From contig NMRA01000006.1 of assembly GCA_002633005.1 (NCBI GenBank), positions 1,508,442-1,572,441 of the forward strand: 64,000 bases of DNA, written 5' to 3'. This document shows, one piece after another, positions 23,475 to 45,920 of the stretch. How positions within the stretch are numbered: the first letter of the stretch is position 1; the number at the start of each line of letters is the position of its first letter. This stretch comes from Phoronis australis (taxonomy: Eukaryota; Animalia; Phoronida). Below the pieces are notes generated by a model. That model did no database searches. It was given only the letters and a program-made list of their open reading frames with translations, and was not told the origin of the DNA. The translations under genes were made by a program, and so were the position numbers.

Positions 23475-23760
23475 TTTGAAGAATGTTTCAGCACGCATGC
23501 GCTGTTTGGTAAAATTGTCATGTAAAAAGGGTAAAAACAAACTACTTAAACATGTTATTATCTATTAAGGATAATGCTTTGGCTCAATGACTTTCTAATT
23601 TTTCTAATTCCATTGCCCTGATCTCTTTAACACACCTATTTGTAATATTTTAATATTACATGAAGCGTTTTACACCCGGAAAGCTAACTGCGCCTGCGCG
23701 TCAAACTTTTGCCAGCAACCGATGGGTAAATAATGGCGGAGATTGGGTGTAACAATACTC
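23475..23760. promoter_or_regulatory. Putative bidirectional promoter between CLUAP1 and CK1
   Basis: Head-to-head genes with ATGs 520 bp apart. NRF1-like GCACGCATGCGC (23491) and TGCGCCTGCGC (23689), ETS-like CCGGAA (23676), YY1-like AATGGCGG (23732), reverse CCAAT (23742). Confidence 0.6.
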
Positions 23761-23993
23761 CAACTTGAAAATCCAAGTCATCTGGGATAATAGCAAAGCT
23801 GTATTGCCATTCGTTGTCGCTTCACTGATGTAATATACAATATCCTAACAGACTAGGGAGTTTGAACACCAGATAATTATTCCAAGTAAGTGAATTCTAC
23901 GTCAAGAGAACTGTTGTCAACTCGAATTTTCGTCAAGTTAAAACTGTCTTGGTTTTGTCCGTTCTTTCTACGTTCTTGTTTTGTTGTTGTAGG

Positions 23994-24069
23994 ATGGAGC
24001 TCAGGGTTGGCGGAAAGTTCCGTCTTGGTCGCAAGATTGGTAGCGGCTCATTTGGTGATATATACCTCG
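23994..24069 (+). CDS. CSNK1D: CK1 coding exon 1 (glycine-rich loop)
   Basis: ttgtag|GATGGAG...CTCG|gtaagt; a 5'UTR intron 23886-23992 is likely. Confidence 0.93.
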
Positions 24070-27000
24070 GTAAGTTCCTTTTTATTGTTATTGTTTTTAT
24101 TTATTTATCCAAGATACGAGAATCCGGAAATGGCGTTTACAGTTTGCGATTCATTCAAAATCATTTCTTTTTCTTTCCTGTAATCAGAATTTCGGAAACC
24201 AAATAGCATTCTGTGGCAAATAGAGCAAGATTCAAATGAATTTCGGTTATTTGTTTATTTCTGTTCTCAATATTCACCAACCATTTTAACAAATCGCAAA
24301 ATCAGTCAGTGACAAATGTGATGTTTCTGATAAAAAAAGTCCTGTGCGTTTTTCATACATGTAATTGAAGTCATGACAATAAAGCAATTTCCACATATAA
24401 TTGTAGATTTTAACTGCTGAAAACAATAATAATTGGATAATAAGAACCCTGGCATTAATTGTCTAAATGTGTGTCTCTGTGTTGTTGTGTCGGCTAACAT
24501 TCTAACCCACTGATGACTGTATGCTGAGCTTTGGTTCTTACTCTTAGTCATACATTCTGCGCCTGTTACGCACTACTTCGCAATGTAGCATTGAAATTTA
24601 GCTAAAAGTAATGTTTCTCATTTGTTATTCCACAGTGTAGTGTGACAGTGTTAATCTTATCTTTAGTGCTATGAATCATGGTAGCAGATCAATATGAGAT
24701 GAGTTTTAGTCAGATTAAATATTGTTTCCTTTTTTGCTTGTCAATTTGGCGGCAATAAGAAATGCCATACCAGCGATTGAACTCCTTATTAGACATTGTG
24801 TAAATTCCCTGTCATCTTAATCAGCAAGAGTCTAAATTGGGTTGCATAGGAAAAACTTTTCATCTCTTTGAAAATATGTTTTAAACTTAAGACGAGTTTC
24901 AAAAACTCTTACCAGGGCCGTCAATGCCTCAGTTTTGGGTCTGAATATCAACCTCATTGCTCTCTGAAGGAAATATTTACTTATTTGCTTTTAAAGTGCG
25001 TAAAATCACTGATGTCATCTTAAAAAACGTCGAAATTCAACCCCACCAGTCTATCAGCTGTCAAATTGCACCCTCAAACACTATCTTACGATATGTTAAT
25101 TTGCTGATCTCTGAGTTATGAGCATATATTGTTACGTAAAATTGGGACAACCAATCACACCACTAGTCATCCTCCACTGCTTTGGTATGAAATTCCATTA
25201 GATAGTACTGTTCATTTTCCCGTGGTTCATGGAATAATAAAGAATGGAGAGACGGTGCGTTTTTGGTGGTTATGACAACTCTGTGTATATAGGCCCTTTC
25301 GTGCTGACTTTACTCCAGTATAAGCGCAGTGTCAACGTAAATTGTGAAGTTAATTGAATCGTTCATTCCGGTCTTGGTAGTCAACAGACATCGAAGTAAA
25401 CGGTTGGTGACGTTGTCACCATCGAAGTTATCGCAAGATATTGCTCATGCGTATGTGAAAACTTGAGAACATTTATGTGTGCTAATTGACATACGGTAAA
25501 ACTTATTTACAATTCGATTGGTGATAATTCAAGCAAAGTATAAGCAACTTTAATTGTTGATGATAGCAGTGGCCCCTGGTGGTAATTTCAATGAGACCAC
25601 AGTTGACCGTAAATACCGTACAGCAGCGTCGACACTCCAATGTTAAGTCCACCTGGTTACTGTGAGGTTAACTGGTGCTGTTAACTTCGATACAGGACTG
25701 AAGTTGATCGTTCATACTGACCGCAACTCCCCAAAACATGGACGCGTCGAGGTTAGTATGAAAAGGCCTATGACAATGCTGTGCTGTGGCTTTTTTACTT
25801 TCCCTTGGAACATCAGAGAAGCACGGATATTGTGCATGGTGTACAATAAACTCGTGTGTTGGTGGACATGACATTAGAGTTGGGTACATTCATACGACAC
25901 GTTCATTTCTGTGGGGCTAGGAAACTCTCAAGTATAGTAATTTTTCTTCTGTTTTCTCATTATGTGGATATTGAATTCAGGATTGTGATGTGCAGTACTA
26001 TAAAGGATGGTCTAATGATGCTGACAATGAAGTCACTTTTCAAAACAATGTAAACTGTGGTTTTAAGCACTTATAGCAAAATTTGCTTCACCAGGCCCAG
26101 AAACTCCTCACTAATGATCAACGTTCTCCTCAAGATTAGACATTCCGTTAGTAAGTTTTATTAACGGCAAAACTCCGCACGTCTACGCCATGTGTCACAG
26201 CCTTGAGCTGGTGAACAGGATGTAGGTTAGTTTATTGCAGTCTGCAAATGTAGGGGCAGTTATGCAGTGTCGAGAAAGAATGGCAATCATGGGAGTCCTC
26301 GGTTCACAATTCAACTCCCCTGCTACTTAGGCGACACTACCAAGTGGTGTTCAAGGCATTGCTTTGAAATTACTTCAGAGAGCTCAGTTTTGGGGCTATT
26401 GATAGGCTGAAAACGAAGAGCGGGGTTGTAGTTAGGGTAAAATCGGCGGGGTATTTTCTCGTTGAAAATAATTTCCGTATCAGAAGAGATTGTCGTCCTT
26501 CCCTTCAGGTGAGCGAGGGCACTGCTTATTACCTTCAACTCTTAATTATTCTATTCGTAACCTCATTGAAGCATGCTTATGCGAATTATGACAGATTTAA
26601 NAAAACAATGTAAACTGTGGTTTTAAGCACTTATAGCAAAATTTGCTTCACCAGGCCCAGAAACTCCTCACTAATGATCAACGTTCTCCTCAAGATTTGA
26701 CATTCCGTTAGTAAGTTTTATTAACGGCAAAACTCCGCACGTCTACGCCATGTGCCACAGCCTCGAGCTGGTGAACAGGATGTAGGTCATTGCCTAGTTA
26801 GTTTATTGCAGTCTGCAAATGTAGGGGCAGTTATGCAGTGTCGAGAAATAATGGCAATCATGGGAGTCCTCGGTTCACACTTCAACTCCCCTGCTACTTA
26901 GGCGACACTACCAAGTGGTGTTCAAGGCATTGCTTTGAAATTACTTCAGAGAGCTCAGTTTTGGGGCTATTGATAGGCTGAAAACGAAGAGCGGGGTTGT

Positions 27001-30000
27001 AGTTAGGGTAAAATCGGCGGGGTATTTTCTCGTTGAAAATAATTTCCGTATCAGAAGAGATTGTCGTCCTTCCCTTCAGGTGAGCGAGGGCACTGCTTAT
27101 TACCTTCAACTCTTAATTATTCTATTCGTAACCTCATTGAAGCATGCTTATGCGAATTATGACAGATTTAACATAGAACTTGCGCCCCATTTTTGATGCC
27201 ATTAACTTCGGAGTTGAGCTTATGAAACGTGACGAATAACGACCTTCAGCATTTTGTCTATCATAGCACGTCATTTATTGAACTATTACTATATTGCAAA
27301 ATCTGCTTGTTGAGATAAAAGTCTATGTTGACTTGGCAGAGTTTTTGTGGTTTAGTCAAGCTCTCTTCTCAATGATTATGTGATTAAATTATCTTGTAAT
27401 ATTCCAGTTAATTAAGCTTTATTTTACGCCTTTCCTGAATTTTTTAAATGATTAGTTTTTATTAGGAAGCTCACTCACCTTTCTCTTTATGTGGTGACAA
27501 GAGCAGGCAAGAGGTTGACACAGAGTGTTGCTGCTATATATTTAGTTGTTTGATTTGTAAGACAAATTTTTAAGCTCAAGGTTTAAGAGTAGCTGATTGT
27601 AGAAATGGTCAACACAGAATTGCTTTACGTTATTGTCATCAGTTCAGTTTGGTAACGGTTTTTGGTTGTGGAGGGGTTTCAGTTATGAGGAATTTTTGTT
27701 TTGAGTAACAACATCATCATTCCCACTATTGTGGGTATGAAGTCTGCGTAATGTCTTGAGTCTATTTGTTTGAGCTGTCATAATTTCGTAAGTGCTAGCT
27801 TGTTGCCATCACGAGGTTCAGGTTGAGGTTAAAGCCAGGTCAGTGCGCTTTTAATCTCTAATCAGGTTGTGTCGTGGCTCTGAGGCATTGTCTGTCCCGA
27901 TTCTGGCCTGGGACACTTGGCCCTTAGTAGACAGAGCTTGGCAGCATTCGCTTGACTGGTTCCTTGCAGTGTTACCAGTGCACTATTGAACAGCTGAGGA
28001 GGTCAAGTTCATTGTTTACCTATTGTTATTGTTGTAGGGCTATGTTATTGGTTGTTCCTGTGGTTGTGGGATGAGACAGACCTTGCCACTTCAAAGTCTA
28101 CTGCAGGGACTAGTCTAAGTGCCTTTGTTCTTGGCTGGTCTGGTTATAACTTTGTGATTCGGCTGTCTAATTTGTAACTCCTGCAAATGTTAAGGTATAC
28201 CCCTGCTAAAAATTCTGATAGTCCGACCTAACGTAATTTTGCCCCATTGTGCTGCTGGTAAATGTAGAGCATCCAATAATACAGTTGTTTTATTTTGTTC
28301 CTGCCCGTTGTTTAGAAAACACCTATGTCCTCTTGTGATAGTGTTCAATTTGGCGCTGTTTTTGCTTATAAATATAATTTTATTTGTTAGGAAGACTGAA
28401 CCTGGCAATGTGACATGTAGTAGTTGCACTGGTACTTTCTTTGTTTCTGAAAGCATTTCTATCTCTGCCTCTGCGCACACGTGTGGCTTTAGTATGGAGC
28501 TACTAATTGATGCCTGGCAAATTAAGTCAGCACGCAGCACTGGCCTCCCAGCAGCTGGTCCTGCCTATTTAGATTATACAGGAGCTATCATCCTGATGCA
28601 GGAATGTGCACTAAACAAAGATTTGTCTGGTGGAACTCCACTTGACCCTGTTAGGGGGAGGGGGCTCAGGTTGCCATCTCGCTTACAGGAGCTATGAACT
28701 GAACTTTGTGCTTGTCATTGGTTGGCGTGGTCCTGTATTCTGCACTTTTTTAGGTCATTGAGTTAGCCAAACCTGTCCCCTTGGGAGTCCTAACATCCTG
28801 GTGTAGGTGAGACAAAGCAGTTAATAGGAACATCCATGTAATGTCTTATCATGAATTTGATGGAGATGAACTATTCTAATTCCTTGTTGAAGAGGAACAT
28901 TTTTGATAGGTGAGAATTAGTAAACTACTTGCTAATAGTGGGAACGTTAATGTGGATAGATTTCACCCATTGTTCGTAAGGTTGAGGGTTTCGTTTAGGC
29001 TACATTCACTGAGATTGACAGGTTCTTGTTAGGTATATCTGCTGAGTCACGCGCCCAACTTTGATGTACACTTTATTGAGTATTAGAATGCACTCACCGC
29101 CTTGTTTGATTTGTGGAGAGATTATAGGTACTCAAGAGCTTCTGCCGTTTGTTGACAAGGCTCTAGTAAATGCTAATTCTAGTTCAAACTCGCTAAGTTT
29201 TGACAGAAACATTCAATAATGCTTGCACGCTTTTGTTGGCCTGTACGTTACTTTCTATATTTATGCCAGTCCCTCTTCACGCTATGCGCTAAAAACTGCT
29301 TTCTGTGAATGTGCTGTGTTGCGCACTGCCAATAACAACAGCAGTCCTGGTATGTGATGTGTTCAGGGATTTAGTCTCTTATGAACAGGTGTGTAATCTC
29401 ATCTGGCTTGTTGACTCCAATGTTCTAAACTCTACTTCACTGCAGTGCCTGTAGCTTATTTGTTGTGTCACAAATGGATGTATGACATTTAATGTGCACT
29501 TCACCTTTGCTTGAACTTCGATAACCCTTGACCCCACAGAAACTGCCATATGTACCAGGGGACCACTATACTGCAGTGTAGGCTGTATGGCTTACTCTCC
29601 ATTTCAAAACGGTGTTGTCTGTCTTGTTACCAGACTTGGATGACAGTGTCAAGTGTGTGCCAATAACCGTGCAGAGCATATGTCAGTGCCATGTTGGGTT
29701 CAATTTACATTAGTGCATTGTACCATGGGATGGTACACAACATGATGAAACAGAGGGGTGGGAACAGTGTTAGATGTTTACACATGTTAGTGACAAGCAG
29801 AGTTGTGCAGTCTGACTCTGTTGTGGTAGTTTTCATTGCCCTCATCTAAATCAACAAATTCACCATATCTTGACAATTTCCAGATGTTATGTTCTATGTG
29901 GGTCATTGCATATAAACATGGTGTAATACACATGAACACTGCTTCTCCCAATCTGATTTTGCAGTCTAATCATGTAGCATGGTGGGTAATGGTCTGGTAT

Positions 30001-33000
30001 AATAACTGCCCGAATTTTGAGAACCAGTTTTCTCCACTGAATCACTGGCATAAACTGGTTCTCAAAATACGGACACGTTATATCAGACTATTGCCACATG
30101 GTCAGTGCTGATGGTGACCATTTGCAGAAAAAAATGCTTACGTCTGATACAAGTCTAAACTTTGGAGGAAGGTGCCTGGTCACAAGACCTGGGTAATGGT
30201 AGGACCTCGCTAAAATCTAGCCAAAATCTCGTGTTCTCGCGAGGTCCTGGGGTTACTAAACTCTACCCTGCAGTTGCCTTGATTGCTGTGCAGGCCTCGA
30301 CATAGCAAGTACACACTCGAAAATACAAGTTGCAATTGTGAAATAAAAAGAAGCAGTGTCTCACGCATAGATTTTCACCAAATGCAAATTTGCGAGAATC
30401 CCAGAATTCCCAAGTCGCCTAACAAGATCTGAGGTCGCCGAAATTGACATAATCGACCAAAAACTTTCATGCTGCACTCCGTTCTCAAAAATATGCGCAT
30501 ACCTCTTCCGTTTCCATTTCTCACGTGAAAAATATGCACCTTTAAATTTCCAACTCAATTCCTCCTGCCAATGAAGAACACAAATGATCAGATACACTGG
30601 AGGTGCATGTTTCATGATCCAATCTTGATCGATTTTGGCTGAACATGTCCGACTTCTGTCTGTTTACTTCCTGTTTTAATTTAAGCGCATGTTTATTGTG
30701 TGCTGGATTTGCAAAATAAATGGAACAACTGTGAACCAAAGGCATTGAATGTAGGAAAACTGTTAGTAATTTAAAGTTTGGAAGTTACCACAAATTTGGA
30801 GGGAAATATTGCCTCACTTTGATACTCGTGGCGGCTTCGGGGATTTTTCCCAGGTCGCTAAACACAATCTGAAGTTGCTTTGGTGACTTGTAGGTCGTCA
30901 AAGCGAGCACTGAAGCAAAAAATTGACCTCACTGTTTATGAGTGAAAATCTGGAGACACAGCGCCGAATACGTCCTCGCTCATATTTTCGAACGGTCATA
31001 TTTTCGTGTGGGCATTTTTACCTGTGTCGAGCACTGCAGTGTGTATGTTTGTTGTGGGGTCAGAAACGTGCAGAACTCGACCACTTGGTCCGCTTCACAC
31101 CGCTTCTCCGTCTCTGGTAACGTTGCCTCTGGCTGTGGTGGGCTGCGCTAGCGTACTATACCTATCTCTCTCAAACAGGCACTAACATTTCCATGGGCGA
31201 AGAGGTGGCCATCAAGCTGGAGTGTGTCAAGACCAAACACCCGCAGTTACACATCGAGAGCAAGTTCTACAAGATGATGCAGGGCGGAGGTAGGTCGCGC
31301 TCTGTTTAACCCCTACCATTAACATACTCACCCGTGGCTGTGGCGGTAGATCATGACAGCCACACTGCCCTGTCCGCCTGTCTGCATCTGTCCGCCTGTC
31401 TTGTCTGTTCAGCGTCTCTTCGTTGGACATCGTCGGCATAGTGCTAATGGCGTGCGCCTGTTGCAATTTCTCCCCAACTAGGTACGGAGGTCCCGACGGG
31501 GGAGGAGGTAGGCATCAAGCTAGAGTGCGCCAAAACGCACCACCCCCAGCTGCACATTGAGGCGCGCATGTACAAAATCCTGCACCCGGGTGGTAAGTCG
31601 ATGACCGTCTGTAATTGTGAAGTGCTGTGTCCGCAACTGACTGTATGTATGTCGCCAATGTGCAACTATCTGTATTTGCTGAGAATGAATGCGTGTGTGT
31701 GCTTGTCATCGACGAGGAGCTGACTGTTTGAGTATTGTTAGCCAACCGTGACTGGTAAGGACTCTGAGCGTGCGTTTTCTGTGATCATGTGACCATGTTG
31801 TCCAGAACTGTGATGCTGAATTTGTTCATAAACTTGACTGCAGGGAATGGATTGCCTGATGTTCTTGTAGTGTGTGCGTTTCTGAATTTGTTTCAGATTT
31901 TTGAAACTGAACAGTACATCTGCAGACATTGGCAACTGTTTTTGGGCTTGGGTAGGCACAAACCATCCTGGCTGATCTTTTGTAGGTAGCCACTCAACGG
32001 TGAACCTTGGTCTATTGTCTTAGTAAAGGAGGAGATCATTTATTAACGATAACTGAAACCTGTTCACACAAGCACCTGAGGAGGTGCCTTTGTTTGTAGA
32101 CCTGGCAGTGGCAACTTATAGGAAATCTATAAGTGTTTGGTTACAGCACACACATTTGTTTGGTACTGTATTGTTTACTGATATGTGGGCAGGATTCCCT
32201 CTAGGGTTTTCTCAGTCAGCTGCTGCTCCTGATGATGTGAATAACGGCAGTGCAGTTGCAGTTGACTCTATTGTTGGGATGGGTCTCTTATAGTGATTCA
32301 GACATCCTGTTTGCTCAAAGGAAATAAGAAATTTTATCCAAAATTTGAAATGAGGTGTATTTAGTCTATGCTCGACTCATAATACTTAAAAAATCCTTGT
32401 TTAATTCTTGAAAGAGTGTCTCATTTTTGAGTTTGATTATTTTCCGCAGTAGTTCACCAACATGAATGTGAAACCATCCAGATTGAGGAAATGCGCCCTT
32501 AGCGAGAGACCCTGATTCTCCGCAATACCGGAAATGGATGTAATTTAGATAATTGGACTTCATTTCTGGAATTAGAGGTTTTGAATGTAATTCAGGTACT
32601 CTAACTAACGTTACCATAATTGAATATTTTTTGTTTTTAATTACAAAAATTAAGAATCAAATTTTGCGATTCTGGCTACAAATCTATCAACGGTCATATT
32701 GCAGGGGACATGTTCAATTATTTTTGAAAATGGTGCTCCTCTTTTTCCAGTTTTGAGAATCAACAAACATGGTTTGCAGCAAGTTATCGATAAAGTGTAC
32801 TCATGTTTATCACTTTGAAATGAAAAAGATTTTGCTAATTAACTGAATTGGGAACTTGGAATTCTATGCTTGCTCACTGGATTTCTCTGTTAATGAAAAT
32901 GGGCCTCTGATGAGTCTAACCTTGCAAGGTGTGATGCGATATCACCTAGAGTAGACTTTGATTAATGAAGAGTTTTTTGTTGCCACGTAACTAGGACGTT

Positions 33001-36000
33001 CTATGCCCTGTCTGCCTAATATTACTGCAAAAAGCAGTAATTAATCACGGTAGATAAAAACTCCACCATTTACAAGCAAGCTGCGACAGAAAGCAGACAC
33101 TGCTAAGGACACTATTGATTTCTGTTAGTTAGTTCACCCCGTGTCCATGCATGTCATTCCAAAGGCTTTCATGCAGGGATTTTGCCAAGTCATTCTACTA
33201 ACTGTTCTTGGGGTTAGGTTCAGTTGTGTAGGGGGGGTTCCTCAACATATTAGTTTAGTTGGTTGATGATTGGTAGACTGTTGATTCTATCAATGGTTTG
33301 CATTGGTGTGAGGTCATGTGGTGTGTTTGAAGATATCCTATCCACCAGCGAGGTTGGTACCGTTCAGTGATCGTGAGGAACAGGTAGGACAGCTCTGGCA
33401 TTAAAGTGGTATCTGGTACAATATTCAGTTGAAAAATCAACAGATGGCTCTGATAATGAATTTACTTTCGAAACATAGATCAACCTAGGATGTTGCCCTT
33501 GCCTCCATGGTTGCCTTGACGACTGCCTGGGTGTGTTTTGTGTTGGTGTTTGTGTGTGTATGTGTTGGTGGTTCTTAAGGTGTGTGGTTGTGCAATCAAT
33601 GTCATCTTACTGTCCATTGTTCAAACAAACTGACTTGATGTGTAATTAAGGAGTGGCTTTTGAGACTGCCGCCAGACGTGCAGCAACCAAAGGGCAGCTT
33701 GCCCCAGATCAGCTGAGCATCAAAATACACAAATGAGTCACCGGTGCTGTGAGGGAAATGATGCGAGTCGATCTCCTGTGGATTAACTATATGAGCTGGG
33801 TGCACATGCACTTAGCTGACTGTTACATTCATAAATATGAAACGGAAAACTGCCATTTGTTGTTGCTGTTCTATTGCGAAACTATAATCGTGGAACGTGT
33901 TGTAAGTTGTATTGTTTAGCAAGTGGAGAAACTATGACCACTGCTTATTCATTTAATGTCATGTTTTGGGGTAAAATCTCTCATTTTTGGATAAAATTTC
34001 CAAATTTACGCTTTTAGATTCTAACATTGTTGTGAATGCGCACAATGTTTCAAAACGTCGTATCTGTGGTACAGTATTTGATCATGGAGATGCATTTAAT
34101 TTGTTTCGTTTCATACTACATGTTTCATGAAAAAATGTTAAAAACAAAATTTCACTTGTCCCCATATTGTGTCCTAAATTGTAGAGAGTTTTCCATAGGT
34201 TACAAACTGCAGATTGCTGTAAAATTTTTACTTAATATCTCTGCTTTCATCATTGCTTGGGCTTTCTGTCCTGTGGTAAAGTAGTCACTGCTTGAACGGT
34301 AATTATCTCTTAGAACCGGTTTTCTACACTGAATAATTGGCATCGAACTGGTTCTCAAAACCTGGGACCCCCTGTAAGTGACTGTAGCCATTCAGCCTAT
34401 AATTTGAGCATTACTTTGAGGTGCTTGTTTTTTCACATTTGCGTCGAAACTTTTGTGTTTTTTTATTTTACCATTTTTGGCAATGGTGCTACAGGCTTTG
34501 TGTTCTTTTTACCATATCTGGGGGGTATACAAAAAGGACTCCTTAAAGGCGAAATCTTAAGACGTGTTTGGTTTATTTATGGACATTCAGAGGAAATTAC
34601 TCAATTGTTAGACATCTTCGGAGACAACTGTTGTTAATTTATTCTCTTGATAAGAAAAGTTCGCCAGCGTGACATTATGATTTCTTTTCAGTGGGTATTC
34701 CCAGTATTAAGTGGAGCGGTACGGAGGGTGATTACAATGTGCTGGTCATGGAACTCCTCGGTCCGAGTCTAGAGGACCTATTCAACTTCTGTAATCGCAA
34801 GTTCAGCACAAAGACAGTATTGCTATTAGCCGACCAGCTAGTAAGTGGACAGTGCCAAGGACGTCGTTCTCACATACGGATGTATTGGGACTGAAATGAT
34901 GCACTGGCGCACAGTTCAAGGGCCCTTTGAGCCCGCACTTAACATCACAATGGGGGTGGGGTTGTGTTTGATTTGTTTGATTTTGGTTTAGGTTAAACTT
35001 TTTGTATAGAACAAAGACTCGACGCTACAATGTCTGTAACTGACATTTTTTTATAAAAACATCAAGTTGGATTTACTTGGAAATCCTGAAGTGCTTTTTG
35101 CTAACATTTGTCCACAGCATTTCGGAGTCCAAAGAAAATACGTTTTCTGAGTCCTGCGTATCAAAATCATTAACAACCGCATTGAAATTAACTGTGCCAG
35201 TAGGCTGTTGCCTCGTTTCAGTCCCGGTGCGGGTGTATGTGTGCACGCGTGCGTAGGTGGTTCCCAGTAGATGACCCATCTCTCTATCGCGTCTGTCTGT
35301 TGTTGGTTTCAGTCGGCATCCCCACCATCAAGTGGTGCGGGGCAGAGGGCGACTACAACGTGTTGGTCATGGAGCTACTCGGCCCCAGCATCGAGGATCT
35401 GTTCAACTTCTGCTCGCGCCGCTTCAGCCTGAAAACGGTGCTGCTGCTGGCCGACCAGCTAGTAAGTGCCCGCCCCGCGTACCCACCCCACCCTGCCCCC
35501 CTTCCCTGTCCCCTGGGGGGTAGTGTGCGGGGGTGGTGGGCGTGCTCTGCATGTTGTCACCGCGTGACTCGATGTTGTATGCATCCTCTCTCACCCACCA
35601 CTTGACGGTTGTAGCCGGCAGTTACACAGGAACGTCCATCCTCTAGAAGCACCTATGGGTGCCTTTCGAGGAAAATTGTCATTGCTATTTTAAGAGGGCA
35701 TTCACATGTAAATTTACCTTTTTTAACTGAAAAGTAACTATTTCTATGAACACTGCTGTTAACTTGACCAATTGAGTTTCAGAAACGACAAAACAGTTTT
35801 CTTCACAAAACCCCCTTGTGCCACCACACATGGACTGCCAGACTAAACCAAGTGTCTTGTGTGAAGTTAGGCTGTTGTGCTATAGCTTCTGCTGCCTTAT
35901 CTGCCATTTTCACATCCACAACCGGTCATCAAAAAGGTCATTCGTTGTGGACGTCCTCATTATCTATGCTAGCACTTCCAGTCCTAGTTGTTGTTATCTC

Positions 36001-39000
36001 TGCTAGATGTTTGCCAACAACCCTGTGTGTGTTTGTGTGGATTTGACTGATAGTTTGTTGATGACTTAACTTCATTGTCCCCCGCCACGCAGTCAAACGC
36101 GAAGGAGGGACATCGTATTCATGTCTGTATGATGCATTGTTTTTGACTTTATATATTAAGAAGGTCAATTCTAATGTCCTTGATGTCATTTTCAAAGCTG
36201 TGAGAAATTTAGTTTTGATCTGAGGGATGCACCTGAGTGATATGTCAGGGTGGGAGGTTTCGATTTCGTTCATGTTGGCAAACTTGGCCTCATCTTCATG
36301 GTAGTAGCGAGTAATTTAAGAGTGGTCGTACATCTCAAGGAATCTGTTGACTGTGGAATTTAGGAGTTGGATTTAGAAAATGTTGGCCCGGCATCTTTAG
36401 AAGGTACAAGCTACCCAAACAATATAGCTCAGTCACCCAAGAACATAGCTCGGCACTCATTAACACGACTCACTGACCGTTAAAGTCAGATCACTGGCTC
36501 CTGAAAAGCCTCACACAACACGACTTAGGCATCCAAATGGCATGGTTCATGTAACACAAACATGACCCAAGGACGAAATGTTCACTTTTTTGTTTTCCAC
36601 TTTGCCATCTAGGGGCAATAAAAAGTACAATGTAGAAATCTCTAAAGACTATTCAGTTCTGTAGCAAAGTGCTACCTTTCCCCTGTCATTCTAGTCGCCA
36701 ATCCGATGGTTACGCACACATCATGAATATTATTAATGTCCAACAGTTTTAAGCCCCTGTCCTATGAATACATTTGTTTAAACAGATTTTTTGTGTAACA
36801 AATGACTACTTGGCTTCACGTGATTTGGTATGCCTGAGCACTTTTTTTCAAGTGTATACAGACCGCCTTGTTGCTAATTGCTGCATTTGACAAGTGTTGC
36901 AGCAAGACTCTTATTGCCGTGGCCTGCCTATCTAGGTTAGTCGGTCCTCACAGTACACATAATCATTCTCATGTTTTGGACGTTTTGTCTCATGCAGCAT
37001 GTGCTTTCCTTAGAATCAAATTTTGCTCCATGAACCACTTTCTCTCTCTTGTCCAGTTGTAGAGTACAGACAAGTTGAGTAAGCTGGCACTCATGGTACA
37101 GTCATTGCAATTCTGGAGCTTTCATATTAAGATAACTGAGCTGATGGTCGTTTTTCAAATGCATTGTATAGTGGTTGTCTGTTCGCAAATGTCCACTGAC
37201 ATCACTGAAAATTTGGAGACATGTAGAAACCAGGGTTGTATTTAGTAGGCGCAACAATTTAGCGAGTTAAGGTTGGATCAGATGACACGTGTCTTGAGAA
37301 ACTTTTGCACAAAAAAATGCTGAAAGTCTGCGTATTCATCCAATGCTTCTGTAGCTTGTGTCAGTTTTATATTTTTATATGATTGTTGTTTTGTCATTTT
37401 CGCACCAAAAAGCAGTTGTGTTCCGGTGATTTCAGTTCTAGTGCATACAAGAGATAAGTGTTGTTTTTTGTCTTGCGGTTTAATACTCATCAAGTTTTCT
37501 GTGATGTCACCGAATGTTTCCAAGCCATCAGCCGTCTGATACTGCATTTGAAAAACGACAGCAGACCGGAAATTCCCCAAATTAATGTACGTGTATGTTA
37601 TCAAGTGCCAAATGTTTGCAAAAAGCAGTCTTGCTAATTGGTTTGCTAAAATGGCTAAATGATTTCAAATGTTTTAGCAAACTGGGCTGAAGCATTTAAA
37701 GGCTATCATGAGCCTACTTTGATACACTGTACAGAGAGCGACGATGGCTGGGGTTCATGAGGATCAAAGTGTGTTCTTAAGCATTAAAGTGCATGAGAAC
37801 GTAAATACCCGCTGTAGCTCGTAAGGAACGAATTGTGCCCGTGAAAAAGAAAACCTTCGTGAGAACTTCCTTTCAGATTGTTTAGGGAGGACTGCTTACC
37901 TTGCTGTATATGCTGGCTTGTGTGTCACATTTAGTGTGTGAAACTACTGTCTGTACCAGTTACATGTGTTGGTTTATTATCGAATGTGCTTTCTTATTCT
38001 TCTAGAGATTCGGTTACACAATGACAATAAAAAGTCAGTCCTAACAATACCTGTTCTGCACAAGTAGAATGTTAGACTGTGCTTAAATCTTCTGTAGGGA
38101 GATCTTCAGTTTTTTTCAAGAAGCAAAAATGTTGCTTGCTCATTAAGTGAAGTTTGATATTTTGGGTGTTCCAAACGACACGCGTGTGCCTTATGTGCAT
38201 TCGCCTTTGAGGGTGTACGTTCTCCCAGACTTTCCTGACTTTATAAGTGTCTGTTCACAAAACATGATAAAATGAAAAGTGCAATCTGTCCGCTCACAGT
38301 ATCCCGATTTCGGTATTCAAATATGGAACCATCTGCTGACATTCCCTGACCAAGGATCATGCAAATCCCAGAATTTGTTACACTCACCAAATATATGAGC
38401 CAACACGCATTGTCAATACGTTTGTCATCGTCCACTTCAGGGAAACTAACCCGCCAGATACTGATCTGCTTACAGTTCCAAGAGGGTCTTTTCGAGACCA
38501 ACCTTGTTGCATTATCACGACACCTGGTGGTTTACTTTGCTTACTTTCTGTGTAGATAAGTCGAATAGAATACATCCACTCCAAAAACTTCATCCACCGT
38601 GACGTCAAGCCAGACAACTTCCTAATGGGCCTGGGCAAGAAGGGCAATCTGGTGTATATCATTGACTTTGGCCTAGCCAAGAAGTACCGGGACGCGCGCA
38701 CCCACCAGCACATCCCCTACAGAGAAAACAAGAATCTCACGGGCACGGCCCGCTACGCCAGCATCAACACACATCTGGGTATAGGTGAGTTGAGAAACGA
38801 CCTCGTTGACGGGAGAGAACGCATGGCGAGTGGATTTGGGGTTGTGGTTTCAGAAATCCGAAGGCCGGAGAAAGTTTTGCACAGCCTTTGAAGCCTTGGT
38901 TCATTATCACACAGTCCACGTAAGAACTAGTTCTCATCAAGGCTCTCTGTAGACTACCGTGCCTTAAAGTTCAGTCGGATCTTGGCTTTGCCTGGACATA

Positions 39001-41772
39001 GTTTTGCAGTTGATCTCAGTATTTCCAACAAGTATGATTTTGCCGTTTTAGAATACAATTTTTGTCCAACTTGTATTGAGTTTTCTTATTGTTTTTACAA
39101 GGACTTTAAGATTTTCACTGTTGAAAGAGTTGCATTCACTGCAGTTCTGTGTCCACATCTGGTCGTGTAACTGTCACCGTTTCATTCCCGCTGTAGAACA
39201 AAGTCGGCGAGATGACATGGAGTCGCTGGGCTACGTCTTCATGTACTTCCTGAAGGGTAGTCTGCCTTGGCAGGGCCTTAAGGCGGCCACCAAGAGACAG
39301 AAATACGAAAGGATCAGCGAAAAGAAAATGTCCACACAGATAGAGGACTTGTGCAAGGGCTTTCCCAGTGAGTATTATTGTCGTAGGAGGTGGTAGTGAC
39401 AAAAATTAATGCGCGACACCTTCTGGGAGGGCCTGTTTATTAAAGGCTTTATGGCCTTGACTAGTTTGGCTTACTTGGTTCTTGTTAGAAAATCCAGTTT
39501 GAAGTATTGGGAGATTTGGCAGCTGTTTAGCAAATTACAATATGTTTGCTTTTAGTAACAATTCGGTGCATTTATTGCAAGAACACACAAACTGCCCATG
39601 GTATGGACATAGGTATTCGAACACGTACATGAAATTTATGTTCCCGTCTTGCTTGAATTTTCTATTTTGGAGAGCATTGGTTATGAATTTTTTTCAGTGC
39701 GTGTATGTAGTTTTGAAGTGCAGGTTTGGAATTTGTACTGCAAATTTGGCGTTTGCTAGATTAGTGGATCCAAGCGGGAAATTTTGAGGCATGGAGTCAT
39801 TTCCACCTCAGAATTTGGTTTGTGGTGTTGTCATTAGTGTAATGCTGTTGAAGAGCCAAAACAATGGGGTCCATTTCAAAATTGTAGCTTTTAAAAATGA
39901 TGCTGCGTTAATGACCACAGTATGATACAACCATCTTAGTAACTGTGCATTTAAACTTTATTAATAAAATGGGTTCTTGAAGTTAACAAAGTCCTCATGG
40001 TTTTAGCATAACATCCATTTCAGTACGAGCACACTTGTGGGTATAACATAATAACACTAAACGAATGTGAATTACGTATAAGAGACATTGAACCAAGAGT
40101 TTTATGCCAAGTCAATTTTTAAAAAATCCGGTAACTCAGCACCATCTGTACTGATACAGAGCTGTCAGGTCTGTGTTGAATGGTTACATGTTGATTGTGT
40201 GTTACGGCAGTCTGAAACGAGGCACAAGTTTTCTCATTCGCATGTAAAATAGAAGACAGAATAAGAATTATAAGTGATGACTTGCTCTGCTTCATGTAAA
40301 TTGTCTTGCATTCAGATGTTCCGGGTGGTTCGTTATTTGTTTTTGCATGCATGTAATCTTTGCCCGCTGATAGATTCGTTGTCTTTTTGTACGATATCGT
40401 AATATCTGATTATAAGTTGTTACTAAAACTTTGTCCCTGTGGCATTTGCAGCCGAGTGTTCGACCTACCTGAACTTCTGCCGGTCGCTACGCTTTGACGA
40501 CAAACCCGACTATTCCTACTTGAGGCAGCTCTTCAGAAACTTGTTCCACCGCCATGGATTTACCTACGACTACATTTTCGACTGGAACCTGCTCAAATTT
40601 GTAAGCAGCACCCTTTGATAAGTTCCCCGTCGCATGGTCCCTCCCTCTCTTTCTCTTTATTAATGTTGTTTTCCGTTGTTGGATTTTACGTGGATTGTTG
40701 TTTATGCCCTCTGTAGGAATGAAGTCCGCAGTGATTTGTTACTACACCAAAGTCTTCAAAGAATTTGACATTGAATGTGTGGATTTTTTCACTTTCTCAC
40801 AATAGAATTTCTGTAATGCTAATGAGCATCACAAGCTGCGTTCAGTGGTGCACCCCATAATATCCAGTATGTATTACTAAAATAAGTCCCTTCCTTGTTA
40901 CTTGGTATGAGCTTGAATTCTTTCTTATTGTTTTCCTTGACGTGCAGTCAAAGATGTGGTGACAGTAATTGGGTCTTAGGTCAGGCTATTAGGGTCAGGT
41001 CAATTTTTCAGCCTTAACTGATTCAGACCCTTGCCTGTCTTCCCAGATAATTAAAAGGCTGATGCTCAAACTCCGTATGTGCTACAGTACATGCCAAAAG
41101 TAATCAGGGAAAATACAATTTCCCCGTTATGATGGGTCAGTATCTGCCATGTCAGGTCATGCTATTTATTCACTTCGAAGGTGAATTTCACTTGCGCTCG
41201 GTCACCTTGATGGGGAAATCCACCTGCGCTCAGTCGCCATGACAGAGAGTTCCGGGTCATTTTGTCTGATTTTTCATGGCGTGAACTGTACCTCACAAAT
41301 GCTTGCTTGTTAATTTTCTGCCTGCCTAGTCCCTTACGTAATCTGTTCAGTGCCCAAATACTTTTCACTTATGCCTGTTGAATGTTGTATGGGTGTTCAG
41401 ATCCCTGATGTGGAGATAGAGCCATTGGCGTTAAGCTTCACAAGTTATGTTGTAATGTTTCATGGTGTTTAGCCTCTGTTGTACTGTGCTGCATGTTGCT
41501 GTCGCTAGAGCATGTTCACCCTCCTTGCGGTGGCTTTTGACCATCTCGACCCCTGTCCCCTAGGGGGGTCTGTCTGCATGCCCGGCCCCGTTCTAGTGCT
41601 GTGTCTGTCTCTCTCGTTTGCAGGGCGGTCCGGGTTCGCGTGCGGCACATGAAGACCGTTGCAAAGACCAGCTGAGAACACCGGTAAACCATCTGCGTGT
41701 TGAGTCACATCGTTTGCCAACGTCCGACTAAACTAATCACCATCCCCTAGCTTGGGTTGGCCGCCATGTTTC

Positions 41773-41804
<32 letters not shown>

Positions 41805-43155
41805 GAAGGGTGCCTGGGTGTCTGGACTAACTAGCATTTTTAACCTGCTTTAGGTTGTGATGTATCAGTCGAAAGATTTGGTTGAGGTTGAGAAATAATC
41901 GGAATGTTAACGTGTGCTTGTGTCCAAAGAGCTTCTGTTGAGAGTTACCGTTCAACATTGTACTAGCAGTATTTAATCCCTTCTACGAGCTAACGTGTAT
42001 TTGCATGTTGTGAACCTGTTGTTCTTTGCCTATGATATGTCGACCTTGTCTACAATGACAAAAATTCCATAAACGCTCGACTAGTTATTCATGTTCTATA
42101 TGCACCTTATCGAAATTTTGGCCGTGCGTCACTCTTTGACTTTGTCCAGTGTTTTGCATGCTGATGTCATTTTTGTCTATGCTATTTTATCTGTGTACGC
42201 GTTTACCCGAGTACTGAGTTCGGTTGCCTTATAGGTTTGCGTATTACGCACTCCTGCTTACGAATTGTGCACTCAGTGTCAATTCCTTTGTTTATGTAAT
42301 GTATAAAAAGTTGCTACTGTTCTTTTAAAAATCTTTTTTAGATCGAATTTCCCAGTTCATTTAGCCTCTGAAAATTCGTATGAGATTTGAAAATGAAGAC
42401 CTACTGTATAAATAAAACAATTTTATCCAGCAGTGAGCCAACGCAGATACTTCAGTAAAACCTGTGCTCACCTTAAAATTCATGGTGTACTTTAACGGAG
42501 CAAAAGTGTTTTAGTTATGATTTGATGCAACTCCCCATGGTAGTGAAAGTCTGTGCTTCTGAGACATTGGTGTGGAATTTGTCCATGCTGGTGACAGGGG
42601 TAGCGATAGTAGTTTCTTGTAGAGACTGATGGAAGTTTTACGTTCCATTTGTTGATTGCAGGGTGGCACTGGTGCTGATGATCGTACGCGTCACCACATC
42701 CACAGCTCAACGACGCGCGCCGTCCAGGGGACGAGTACGGGCCGGATACGCAGCTCCGACCATGCTGCTGGTGCTACAGCTAGTCCATCGGCCGACTACG
42801 GAGGTAGGTCGGGCGTCACTGCTGCAGGGAGTCCTGGTCATCTTGTGGGGGGATCCTGAGTTGCCCGTGTGGGCATTACTGACCGTAGTGAATATTGAGA
42901 CGGGCATGGGTAAAAATAGTGTTATGATTACGTGAAACTGCTTGAATTTTGCAGTTTTGTTTTTGGTTATGGATTTTGGTTTAGTTATTTTACATATCAT
43001 TTTTCTAAGAATTCTCTAACTAATTTATCTTTTGAATTGTGGTATTGAATTTTCTTAAATTATTTTTCAATAAGTAATTTAATTGCAGTCACTTTGAACA
43101 ATTTCTATTCAGTTGTGGCTATCCGTGGTGCTTGTATTCTTATGTGTCTGTGCAT

Positions 43156-43187
<32 letters not shown>

Positions 43188-45920
43188 GCTGTCATTGCTG
43201 TAGAATAGGCGTGTGTTAAGCTTACCCTGATGCACTCTATGCAAACTATGGGCTTCACTGAAACTCTCTAGTCTATGCATCCAAAAGGTCTCCAAAGATC
43301 CTTCACTGCCTCTTTCTGCTAGTGCCTCTCCAGCTTCTCTTGAAATAATTCACCATCACTGTGAATTGAAAAGGGAGCCTTGTAATCCACTGTTCTCATT
43401 CACGTAATGTTGAATGTCGATACATAATCCAAGATATTCTGTAAACGTGTTGGCGCATGTGTTAGTGACCTACTTAATGGTGAGTTTTGTCTTCCTCCTC
43501 CTACTTTGACGAGGTTGTAGCGGTTTGACTGATTTCAGATGTCAAGTTGTTCAGAAGGCATGTGGCTGGCACCTTCTATGTTGTTTGTTCTTAGAAGCAC
43601 CCCTGGTGTCGGCATGAGCATCTTTGGAGACTTGCACTGCTCTATTTTTCCTTTCACCTTTATCTCGCTCTATCTCTCTCTCTCTCTGTGCCACCCGTAG
43701 ACCCTGGCCCTGATCGAGTGCTTGTGCGGCCACAGACTCTGGAGCCGGCAGCCCTCCTTGCCGACCGGCCCCTAACCAGGTCACAGTCCAAAGACAAAGG
43801 CGGTGGTCTGACCCGACAGGCAGACTTGCGACCTTCTGGTCGCACAGCCAGTGCTCAGCCCAGACTGTCTGCCAATATGCACGGTCTACAGCCGGGCTCT
43901 TCAACAAAGAAGCGCAAGGAATCTGATGATTCGCGTCTACGTAGTGGGTCCTCTCGAAAGTCTGCACTTTCAAGGCCAAAGATGACAAATAACTAGCAGC
44001 GCCATCTGTTGTGAAGGAATTATCATTTTGGTTTTGGGACACTTGGTTCTGTTGTAAAAGGGTTGTCCTCATCACCTCCATTGTTGTAACGGGTCAAGAT
44101 ATAACTATATGAATCATGATTTTGAGTTTGTTGAACATCAAATCCAGTAATGTCTGGTGTTAGCCAGCTCTGTTGTACTCAATTTCCTAACACCTCAGTT
44201 TTTAGTAATGTGTAAATACTGTGTGCATATCCGTTTTATTTATTATATTTCTCAATAATTTCTATCAATTTGGAAGTGATCTGTATTGTTCCGTTTTTAT
44301 TGTTTGTGGCCGTTACTATCCACAAGTGCTGTGTATCTGCTGGGCTGAATAAACAAGATGAGTCCAAGAGTAACAGTGCACTTGTTTATGTTGAGTACAC
44401 TAGGAAATGGAGGTTGTCTCAGTCAGAATTTTTTTACAATTGCATTTATTTCATTATCGTTCATGTTGTTCTCTTGAACTGTATCCGTGTACATAATAAT
44501 ATTCCTACAGAGTTCAGGCGTCAGGAGTTCACTGTGGTTCACTGTGAAATGTGTTTGTAACCACTCCAAGTTTTTGTATGAAACGAACTTTGTCATAGTC
44601 TGTGTTGTTATCTGTTTCGTTTGTGTTTAATGTTTGCCACTGTTCAACTTATTTGTTGCCTTTGAACCACTACTGTAGAAAGTGTGAACTTTCATAAACG
44701 CTGATTTGATGAATTTGATGAAGCAGTTTTCAACAGCTGCTGTTACGTATGGCATGAAGACTCCCTCACTATTGACTTAAGTGACAAAACGAGTTGGTAC
44801 CAAGACATAAAAACTTTGTTATCAGACTCTATACACTATGGATGTTAATCACATCTCGAAACGTTAGGCCGGATTTTCTAAATCCATTTGCTAGACATTG
44901 CGAGCAGGGTATGTCGAAATATCCAATACTTAGTCCATGGGTGTTTTACGTAGATTCGAGACACTCGCGTGCTTCACTTGCAATAAGTGGCGACATCTTT
45001 TGACGACTTGCGTTTTTGCAAGTTTCTTTTGTCTGCGAAATACAGCCGTTATCACAGCTGATTGGCCAGTGTATTTTTATGTTCATAGATGATTGGTGAG
45101 ATTATATATATATATTTATATGCGAATCTGACCACTAAATGGTTTCATTACCTGTTGCCAACAGCCAAGCCTTGGGTTGCTGACACTACTTTGTTGAGGC
45201 TGGCGCATGATCACTGTACTAACATTGTTCGTAGTTTTCGTTGAGTAACCCTAACCTACCACCTTAGACTTTGTTCTGATAGTAACTGTAAACGTGTTCT
45301 CTGCTCTGTTCTGTGGTGTTGGCTTAACCTTATTTCTACCCCCAATGACTCAGTGGTGCAAGAAATGGTGACCTCACCTTCTCATGACAGTGAGTAGTGA
45401 TGAACGACTCTGGGTCACAATTTAATGAGAACTGTTCTCTCGTAAAAAAGACGGGTTTCAACTGTCTTTGTGAAATTTTAAATTCACTTTACTTTCTGTT
45501 AGTAGTATTTTGAAGGAGAGGGGTAATTTTTCTTTATTTTGGTTTGCTGGATTTCCAATTGGGTTTCTGTTACTTGGGTTTGCTGACAGTTTGCTTCACT
45601 GGAATTCCCTTTTATCGCGATGGTATGGGCTAGTGCCCTGTCCACCACGTGGTCTTCATGTCTTGCTAACCACCGAGTCGTGGGTTCTGTGTCGTCTGCA
45701 CTACTAATGCATGCTTTGTTAACCTCGTTCTACAGCCGCTCCCTCACCTAGTCGTCCAATCTCTCGTGCAGAACGCGAGCGGCGGATCAGCCAACGGCTG
45801 CACCGTGGCCAGCCACCTCTGATGACTAACCCGGAGCTGGCGCGTGAAGGCACGCGGCTGTCAAGCATGGGCCCGCCGGCGTCCAATACCCGCAAGACCA
45901 GCGCTAGCGCTCGGAGGTGA
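23994..45920 (+). CDS. CSNK1D: Casein kinase I delta/epsilon (doubletime-like); exons 23994-24069, [31179-31289 | 31482-31592], [34692-34840 | 35313-35461], 38556-38784, 39197-39367, 40452-40600, 42662-42803, 45736-45920 (403 aa), plus alternative tails
   Basis: [26 protein letters not shown]...EEVAIKLE...[10 protein letters not shown]...DFG...[15 protein letters not shown]...LPWQGLKA...DWNLLKF. Exon sizes 76/111/149/229/171/149 match the vertebrate CSNK1D/E layout as I recall it. The tail contains the delta/epsilon-type motif [20 protein letters not shown]. This is a co-ortholog of CSNK1D and CSNK1E. Confidence 0.95.
26042..27171 (+). repeat. ~560-bp direct duplication joined by single N (26601); probable haplotype overlap artefact
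   Basis: 26042-26600 versus 26602-27171 differ by a few SNPs and one short indel. Confidence 0.85.
29990..30095. mobile_element. Short hairpin/MITE family copy
   Basis: GAATTTTGAGAACCAGTT...AACTGGTTCTCAAAAT with complementary outer arms. Confidence 0.7.
31179..31289 (+). CDS. CSNK1D: CK1 exon 2a (canonical)
   Basis: aaacag|GC...GGAG|gtaggt; [37 protein letters not shown]; 111 nt. Confidence 0.93.
31482..31592 (+). CDS. CSNK1D: CK1 exon 2b (paralogous alternative exon)
   Basis: caactag|GT...GGTG|gtaagt; [37 protein letters not shown]; 111 nt, same phase, K38 and E52 retained. Confidence 0.85.
34692..34840 (+). CDS. CSNK1D: CK1 exon 3a
   Basis: ttttcag|TG...CTA|gtaagt; [50 protein letters not shown]; 149 nt. 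Confidence 0.9.
35313..35461 (+). CDS. CSNK1D: CK1 exon 3b
   Basis: gtttcag|TC...CTA|gtaagt; [50 protein letters not shown]; 149 nt. Confidence 0.9.
38556..38784 (+). CDS. CSNK1D: CK1 exon 4 (HRD, DFG, activation loop)
   Basis: [44 protein letters not shown]...ASINTHLGI; 229 nt, GT-AG. Confidence 0.95.
39197..39367 (+). CDS. CSNK1D: CK1 exon 5
   Basis: [44 protein letters not shown]...; 171 nt. Confidence 0.95.
40452..40600 (+). CDS. CSNK1D: CK1 exon 6 (end of kinase domain)
   Basis: [49 protein letters not shown]|gtaagc; 149 nt. Confidence 0.95.
41624..41731 (+). CDS. CSNK1D: CK1 candidate alternative exon 7a (short terminal tail; internal donor at 41683 also possible)
   Basis: Strong acceptor ctctctcgtttgcag; phase-0 [35 protein letters not shown]; AATAAA at 42411. 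Confidence 0.6.
   Translation, partial: GGPGSRAAHEDRCKDQLRTPVNHLRVESHRLPTSD
41774..41803 (+). repeat. (CTG)10 microsatellite
   Basis: Seen directly. Confidence 0.95.
42662..42803 (+). CDS. CSNK1D: CK1 exon 7b (tail)
   Basis: ttgcag|GGTGGC...GGAG|gtaggt; [15 protein letters not shown] resembles vertebrate ATRGLPSTASGRLRG. Confidence 0.8.
43156..43188 (+). repeat. (TTG)11 microsatellite
   Basis: Seen directly. Confidence 0.9.
43701..43996 (+). CDS. CSNK1D: CK1 candidate alternative terminal exon 8a (basic, Ser/Arg-rich)
   Basis: Long (TC)n tract then ccgtag|; phase 1 is compatible with exon 7b; ~98 codons open, including STKKRKE; AATAAA at 44348. Confidence 0.65.
45736..45920 (+). CDS. CSNK1D: CK1 terminal exon 8b (conserved delta/epsilon tail)
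   Basis: ctacag|CC...; [28 protein letters not shown]...ARR*, similar to vertebrate [21 protein letters not shown]. Confidence 0.85.

What the first reader, a model, noticed from the sequence alone, without database searches (positions are those of the whole stretch)
31179..45920. Combinatorial splicing system in the clock kinase CK1delta/epsilon: 2 x 2 mutually exclusive kinase-domain exons x at least 3 tails
Seen: exon 2 and exon 3 each occur as two tandem paralogous copies of identical length and phase, with intact splice sites and no stops, while exons 1 and 4-6 are single copy. Three compatible 3' endings (7a; 7b+8a; 7b+8b) follow. Established: CK1delta/epsilon (doubletime) phosphorylates PERIOD and sets clock period, and its tail is autoinhibitory. 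Vertebrates diversify it by gene duplication and tail splicing, and to my knowledge not by swapping N-lobe exons. Inference: one gene can encode four different catalytic domains and up to about 12 kinases, a way to tune clock or Wnt kinase activity by tissue or rhythm. I am not aware of this being described, but cannot check the literature.
Basis: partly seen in the sequence, partly recalled or inferred. Interest (0 to 1): 0.88.

Follow-up and report, generated by a model that had tools for sequence, protein, structure and literature searches.

The report
Clock kinase with swappable core exons
In this invertebrate the gene for the clock kinase CK1 delta/epsilon carries second, diverged copies of two exons that build the enzyme's core; RNA reads show both second copies being spliced in as minority forms that vary between samples, which likely lets some cells make a kinase with different target preferences.

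Summary
Real and partly confirmed by RNA. A CK1delta/epsilon gene (likely lophotrochozoan) has tandem copies of exon 2 (111 nt; 23/37 aa identical) and exon 3 (149 nt; 43/50 aa). All have AG/GT ends, no stops, saturated synonymous divergence and low amino-acid change. Raw RNA-seq of three samples from one study shows GT-AG joints 2b>3a (6/1/15 reads), 3a>4 (127/85/43) and 3b>4 (1/4/9), plus exon 1 joined straight to 2b (11 reads, one sample); no 3a>3b joint is listed. So 2b and 3b are minor, sample-dependent forms. '2x2x3 = 12 kinases' is therefore unproven. Exon 2b keeps K38/E52 but changes 14 residues, including K45H between the period alleles T44A/H46R/P47S. The kind is known (JNK, p38, Fyn), and insect CK1gamma (gish) models duplicate the same exon-3 segment. 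I found no report for CK1delta/epsilon in 10 literature searches, and no duplicate in 10 (exon 2) and 9 (exon 3) testable loci of other organisms.

The parts
23994..24069 (+). First coding exon (residues 1-25, glycine-rich loop); preceded by an AG acceptor, so a non-coding exon likely lies upstream
   Evidence: its 3' end is the loose-end consensus at the 2b start in run X4 (11 reads)
31179..31289 (+). Exon 2a, canonical copy (residues 26-62: VAIK lysine 38, alphaC); inferred major form
   Evidence: 85% mean identity to 35 full-length homologues; junctions not tested by reads
31482..31592 (+). Exon 2b, diverged copy (14 of 36 full codons change the residue, incl. A36G, K45H, G61P; K38, T44, H46, P47, E52 kept); minor form
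   Evidence: joints 2b>3a 6/1/15 reads and exon1>2b 11 reads
34692..34840 (+). Exon 3a (residues 63-112); major form
   Evidence: 3a>4 joints 127/85/43; best PDB hits CK1epsilon/delta
35313..35461 (+). Exon 3b; minor form; 7 residue differences from 3a (S67T, S71C, T73A, L89I, N97S, K99R, T102L)
   Evidence: 3b>4 joints 1/4/9
38556..38784 (+). Exon 4, single copy (HRD, DFG, activation loop)
   Evidence: Pkinase; acceptor confirmed by joints
39197..39367 (+). Exon 5, single copy
40452..40600 (+). Exon 6, single copy, end of kinase domain
41624..41731 (+). Candidate terminal exon 7a (35-aa tail, 5 Ser/Thr); AATAAA at 42411
   Evidence: DNA only: acceptor, GC 0.57 against 0.40-0.44 in flanking introns
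42662..42803 (+). Exon 7b (tail, phase 0-1)
   Evidence: resembles the Paralvinella CK1 tail
43701..43996 (+). Candidate terminal exon 8a (7b+8a tail 145 aa, 34 Ser/Thr); AATAAA at 44348
   Evidence: DNA only; frame length not beyond chance
45736..45920 (+). Terminal exon 8b (7b+8b tail 108 aa, 27 Ser/Thr), the conserved tail
   Evidence: 53% identical over 95% to Paralvinella CK1 P0122, E 6.7e-4

Best explanation
This CK1delta/epsilon gene holds two adjacent pairs of tandemly duplicated kinase-domain exons, and RNA reads show the second copy of each (2b, 3b) spliced in as a minority form whose share differs between samples, likely a cell-type-regulated swap that would change substrate preference or activity rather than the fold. 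Shown: exon1>2b, 2b>3a, 3a>4, 3b>4. Inferred: 2a-3a is the bulk form; 2a-3b supplies the 3b reads; so at least three catalytic domains are likely made. Exclusivity: keeping both 3a and 3b shifts the frame into a stop (shown in sequence), so such RNAs would be removed by nonsense-mediated decay (inferred); keeping both 2a and 2b stays in frame, so exon 2 needs an active choice, most likely by splicing proteins, since no docking helix stood out and the 2b branch-site candidate lies about 155 nt from the 2a donor (inferred). Effect: 2b leaves K38 and E52 but remodels the beta3-alphaC region around the period alleles T44A/H46R/P47S; by analogy with those alleles and with JNK2 exons 7a/7b it is predicted to shift site preference. 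The duplications are old (synonymous sites saturated) but lineage-restricted.
For: Joints and loose end. pN 0.24 against pS 0.81 for exon 2 (Fisher p 1e-6), pN 0.10 against pS 0.83 for exon 3 (p 1e-15). 3b share 0.8%, 4.5%, 17.3% across X2/X3/X4 (chi-square p 3e-5, small expected counts); 2b>3a per 3a>4 joint 0.05, 0.01, 0.35; both minor exons peak in X4. Frames of double inclusion. G36, V29, I58, L59 also occur together in a single-copy exon 2 of another organism (L028, L030), so those 2b residues are tolerated in a CK1delta/epsilon gene. Period alleles T44A, H46R, P47S cluster in the N-lobe and alter FASP/degron activity (10.1101/734624, passages). JNK2 7a/7b change substrate affinity (PMC9636906, passages).
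Against: No 2a junction was measured, so 2a dominance and absence of 2a+2b RNA are not shown; reads resembling human DNA are dropped without notice, which may inflate the 2b share. Only three samples of one study, about 18-19% of each run, tissues unknown, no protein evidence. Intronic depth of 1-10 on the sense strand shows much unspliced RNA, so low-count joints could include unproductive splicing. 2b has drifted (61% mean identity to 35 homologues; K45H, F55M, Q60H, G61P, V42A, E28, P30 in 0 of 147 exon-2 hits) and may be a weak kinase. No conserved orthologous pair was found elsewhere.
Confidence: 0.72

Rival explanations
1. One reading: both pairs and three tails combine freely into about 12 kinases that tune clock or Wnt timing by tissue or rhythm.
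For: All combinations are in frame; three of the four internal exon copies have direct joints; tails differ strongly in Ser/Thr content (5, 34, 27); tail splicing matters in mouse CK1delta (PMC9794997, passages).
Against: 2b>3b is not among the listed joints (about 3.1 expected in X4 if independent, chance of 2 or fewer 0.39: inconclusive); no tail junction was laid; 7a and 8a lack homology support; nothing links the samples to time of day; CK1delta/epsilon has many non-clock roles.
Confidence: 0.2
2. 2b makes a low-activity or decoy kinase that binds partners but phosphorylates poorly, so the swap lowers CK1 output instead of redirecting it.
For: A36G sits two residues from K38 and was Ala in 35 of 35 full-length homologues; G61P and Q60H follow alphaC; low-activity K38R lengthens period in flies.
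Against: K38, E52, T44, H46, P47 are kept; G36 with I58/L59 occurs in a single-copy exon 2 elsewhere.
Confidence: 0.2
3. 2b and 3b are old duplicates on the way out, included by splicing noise.
For: Low shares in two of three samples; no orthologous duplicates in testable loci.
Against: Saturated synonymous sites with intact frames and splice sites need lasting selection on both copies; 17% 3b in X4; among the 40 best-supported of 65 variant places listed none lies in 2b, 3a or 3b.
Confidence: 0.08
4. Assembly artefact (two haplotypes or paralogues merged).
For: A true haplotype-like duplication exists at an N gap in intron 1.
Against: Exon copies differ at 27-36% of bases with unrelated flanks, no N nearby, and reads join both copies to the same exon 4.
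Confidence: 0.01

Closest known systems
Insect CK1gamma (gilgamesh, gish) duplicated kinase exon
   Same: Gene models of a moth (KAI5651320.1, P0007) and a mayfly (KAF4518386.1, P0008), both with CK1gamma_C, hold two tandem copies of the very segment encoded by exon 3 here; copy 1 pairs with copy 1 (42/51) and copy 2 with copy 2 (47/50) across species. FBgn0250823 (gish) is in the fly list of a homologous-MXE study (PMC7954323 supplement; the list does not say which exons).
   Different: Different paralogue; the gish copies are closer to each other (38-39) than to 3a/3b (31-33) and 3a/3b share 43, so the duplications are independent; only the exon-3 segment is doubled in those two models.
JNK1/2 (MAPK8/9) exons 7a/7b, p38alpha (MAPK14), FYN tandem-duplicated internal exons
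   Same: Homologous mutually exclusive exons in protein kinases; listed among 236 human events (PMC8373072 supplement); JNK 7a/7b alter substrate affinity (PMC9636906).
   Different: One pair per listed event, other parts of the domain, conserved across vertebrates or chordates; 'CSNK1' has 0 hits in that supplement.
C-terminal tail splicing of CK1delta (delta1/delta2) and insect dbt
   Same: Alternative tails with different phosphorylation content; four dbt isoforms in Pyrrhocoris (PMC9794997, passages).
   Different: Confined to the tail; that paper has 0 hits for 'mutually exclusive' or 'mollus'.
CK1alpha / CK1alphaL splice variants
   Same: Splicing gives CK1 enzymes with different catalytic properties (reference title seen in PMC7733671).
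   Different: A cassette insertion in the domain (recalled), not a swap of homologous exons.

Membership tests
CK1delta/epsilon (doubletime) subfamily | Kinase domain closer to delta/epsilon than to alpha or gamma | tested here: met
   PDB search: 3a 88/85 bits to epsilon/delta, 75 to alpha, 50-53 to gamma; 2b 44/42 bits to delta/epsilon, 29-35 to alpha. The tree separates gamma only; alpha versus delta/epsilon is unresolved.
CK1delta/epsilon (doubletime) subfamily | Minimal N-terminus and long Ser/Thr-rich tail without CK1gamma_C | tested here: met
   Numbering matches CK1delta from Met1; no Pfam hit in 7a, 7b, 8a, 8b; 7b+8b resembles the Paralvinella tail.
CK1delta/epsilon (doubletime) subfamily | Phosphorylates PERIOD and sets clock period in this species | not testable with these tools
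   Inferred from orthology only.
Tandem-duplicated mutually exclusive exons | Adjacent homologous exons of equal length, phase and splice sites | tested here: met
Tandem-duplicated mutually exclusive exons | Each copy joined to both flanking constitutive exons in RNA | tested here: inconclusive
Tandem-duplicated mutually exclusive exons | Copies never joined to each other | tested here: inconclusive
   No 3a>3b joint listed beside 269 exon-3>4 joints (threshold 3 reads, 2 starts); 2a>2b not testable, 22 loose ends not shown.
Tandem-duplicated mutually exclusive exons | Purifying selection on both copies | tested here: met
Docking-site/selector RNA control (Dscam1 type) | Strong intronic helix beyond shuffled background, conserved across species | tested here: not met
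   15 region pairs: best was -25.6 against a shuffle minimum of -25.4 (0 of 12), the other 14 were reached by 1-12 of 12 shuffles; ungapped search of about 300-nt flanks only, no relatives to test conservation.

The most novel reading that the evidence does not exclude
One animal lineage has turned the most conserved clock kinase into a splice-switchable enzyme: a cell-type programme co-selects 2b and 3b to give a CK1delta/epsilon whose beta3-alphaC loop is a natural equivalent of the T44A/H46R/P47S period mutants, so different cells run CK1-dependent timers (daily, tidal or lunar) at different speeds from one gene; with gish it marks residues 63-112 as a recurrent hotspot for exon-swap tuning in the CK1 family.
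Probability: 0.15. Interest if true: 0.85.

Novelty: new member of a known kind. Interest (0 to 1): 0.5.

Why it matters
The CK1delta/epsilon catalytic domain barely changes between sponges and people, and single substitutions in residues 38-80 shift clock period in flies and humans. An expressed natural variant with 14 changes in that stretch is a ready-made probe of what sets CK1 site preference and inhibitor sensitivity. It also warns that PF-670462 or knock-down experiments in such animals may hit several catalytic forms, and that single-model annotation hides them. The independent duplication of the same exon in insect CK1gamma suggests this segment is repeatedly used for tuning.

Tried and rejected
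The 2b homologue search returned no candidates (weak). phmmer of 2b against 1.84 billion representatives: best single-exon hits 69-72%, no close 2b orthologue; the 2-copy hit P0124 has two identical copies in a record labelled unverified contaminant and was set aside. 5 of 147 hits share G36/V29/I58/L59 with 2b, but L028/L030 show that type as the only exon 2, so it is not an orthologous alternative exon. P0002 and P0003 repeat whole multi-exon blocks and were set aside as gene-model duplications. RNA-helix search: first script timed out, second found nothing convincing. ESM Atlas did not answer. Earlier scan findings: none for this gene. No structure or complex was predicted, since the spliced forms are not contiguous in the window.

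Full report
Observation. The window holds a plus-strand CK1 gene with coding exons at 23994-24069, 31179-31289 (2a), 31482-31592 (2b), 34692-34840 (3a), 35313-35461 (3b), 38556-38784, 39197-39367, 40452-40600 and candidate tails 7a, 7b, 8a, 8b. 2a/2b are both 111 nt (71/111 nt, 23/37 aa identical, 192-nt intron between); 3a/3b both 149 nt (109/149 nt, 43/50 aa, 472-nt intron). All four combinations give 295 codons without a stop. Joining 2a+2b stays in frame; joining 3a+3b shifts into a stop. The four Ns of the window lie outside 31-46 kb and 100-nt flanks of the copies show no similarity (local scores 14-17).

Identity. 3a and 2b match CK1epsilon/delta chains best in the PDB with unchanged numbering (63-112 and 26-61). 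The 8b tail found one protein among 174 candidates, the CK1 of the annelid Paralvinella (53%), whose tail also resembles 7b. An exon-5 motif is shared with Paralvinella and with none of the eight sponge, cnidarian and mite proteins printed. The host is therefore likely a lophotrochozoan (inference); the 14-row tree did not resolve this.

Transcripts. Four runs were listed: one contig set and three raw RNA-seq runs of one study under the same species label. Laid on 31290-38700 (about 18-19% of each raw run), four joints were listed: 2b>3a 6/1/15 reads, 3a>4 127/85/43, 3b>4 1/4/9 (all GT..AG), and a 45-base step back inside intron 3. In X4, 11 reads stop at the 2b start with a loose part equal to the 3' end of exon 1 (compared), so exon 1 joins 2b while skipping 2a. 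No 3a>3b, 2b>3b or 2b>4 joint reached the listing threshold; 22 loose ends and 25 variant places were not shown. 3b makes 14 of 269 exon-3>4 joints (5.2%, Wilson interval 3.1-8.5%), from 0.8% to 17.3% by sample. Independent choice predicts about 3.1 2b>3b reads in X4, so their absence is uninformative. Exon 2a, exon 1, exons 5-6 and all tails were outside the stretch laid; 2a as the bulk form is inferred from the excess of 3a>4 over 2b>3a, from its closeness to homologues, and from thin depth at the 5' end of 3a. Introns carry depth of about 1-10 on the sense strand, so only joints were counted.

Selection and residues. Exon 2: pS 0.81, pN 0.24; exon 3: pS 0.83, pN 0.10. Both duplications are old and both copies constrained. 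Mean identity to 35 ungapped full-length homologues: 2a 85%, 2b 61%, 3a 93%, 3b 88%. 2b changes N28E, I29V, S30P, M31T, A36G, V42A, K45H, S53A, K54R, F55M, M58I, M59L, Q60H, G61P and keeps K38, T44, H46, P47, E52. In passages of 10.1101/734624, T44A, H46R and P47S are short-period alleles that cluster in the N-lobe, keep FASP priming and modestly raise degron phosphorylation; M80I lies next to K38. K45H falls between them. Neither exon 3 copy is simply ancestral: 3a alone has S71 (C in 35 of 35) and T102, 3b alone has I89 and R99 (L and K in 35 of 35). Position 80 and the MELLG hinge stretch are identical in both. Roles of E52, the hinge and helix names are recalled.

Distribution. No second copy in 10 loci testable for exon 2 or 9 for exon 3 among 80 fetched; these include L006, whose exon 2 is identical to Paralvinella's. 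No close 2b orthologue among the best 150 of 549 phmmer hits. A single-copy exon 2 with V29, G36, I58, L59 occurs in L028/L030. No eukaryotic genome collection was searchable, so close relatives are untested.

Mechanism. Exon 3 exclusivity can be enforced by frame and decay (inferred). Exon 2 cannot; the CTAAT at 31444 is about 155 nt from the 2a donor, beyond the roughly 50-nt steric range (recalled), and no intronic helix stood out in 15 region pairs. Protein-regulated choice is the default; both minor exons peaking in the same sample fits a shared cell-type factor.

Tails. 7b+8b is homology-supported. 7a and 8a have acceptors, raised GC (0.57 against about 0.40) and downstream AATAAA, but the 97-codon frame of 8a is matched by 56 of 200 shuffles. 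Tail splicing of CK1delta and dbt is known in vertebrates and many insects (PMC9794997, passages).

Known kin. Homologous exon swaps in kinases are catalogued for MAPK8, MAPK9, MAPK14 and FYN, with no CSNK1 hit (PMC8373072, passages and supplement search); JNK2 7a/7b alter substrate affinity (PMC9636906, passages). Two insect CK1gamma models double the exon-3 segment, copy-for-copy orthologous between moth and mayfly and independent of 3a/3b; gish is in the fly gene list of PMC7954323 (passages, supplement search and file list; identifier confirmed in PMC6826512, one passage), without the exons named. PMC7733671 (passages) mentions CK1 splice variants only. Ten searches (listings and abstract starts), of which 10, 16, 34 and 60 bear directly on CK1 exon swapping, showed no report for CK1delta/epsilon; subscription journals, database annotations and bioRxiv supplements were not covered, and an automatic annotation of this species may already list the isoforms.

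Verdict. A real, expressed pair of alternative exon clusters in CK1delta/epsilon: new for this kinase as far as searched, a known kind of system, with the combinatorial and clock claims still open. Interest 0.5.

Noticed in passing
window 26042-26600 and 26602-27171: Near-identical tandem blocks (about 560 nt) on either side of a single N in intron 1: likely a haplotype or scaffolding duplication.
   Followed up: partly
window about 23700-23886: Likely non-coding first exon ending at a GTAAGT donor, with a short upstream ORF from an ATG near 23733; further donor-like sites near 22983 and 23100.
   Followed up: no
window 4065-5027 (minus strand): ORF that looks like the N-terminus of TRAPPC9 (recalled; Pfam gave no hit), divergent from the CK1 gene.
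   Followed up: partly
window about 42733, inside exon 7b: A possible internal donor would shorten the tail by about 23 residues, close to the length of the Paralvinella tail between the two conserved motifs.
   Followed up: no
P0007, P0008 (insect CK1gamma): Gene models include both copies of a duplicated kinase-domain exon in tandem, conserved between moth and mayfly.
   Followed up: partly
L028:9635-9745, L030:1933-2043; P0126-P0128, P0140, P0240: Single-copy exon 2 with V29, G36, I58, L59, as in 2b, in unnamed organisms: apparent convergence.
   Followed up: partly
window 34146-34181 and 34327-34377: Short repeat-like stretches in the 2b-3a intron that attract reads from both strands and other loci.
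   Followed up: no
window 38063-38107: Reads step back 45 bases in two samples: likely a tandem-duplication allele in intron 3.
   Followed up: no
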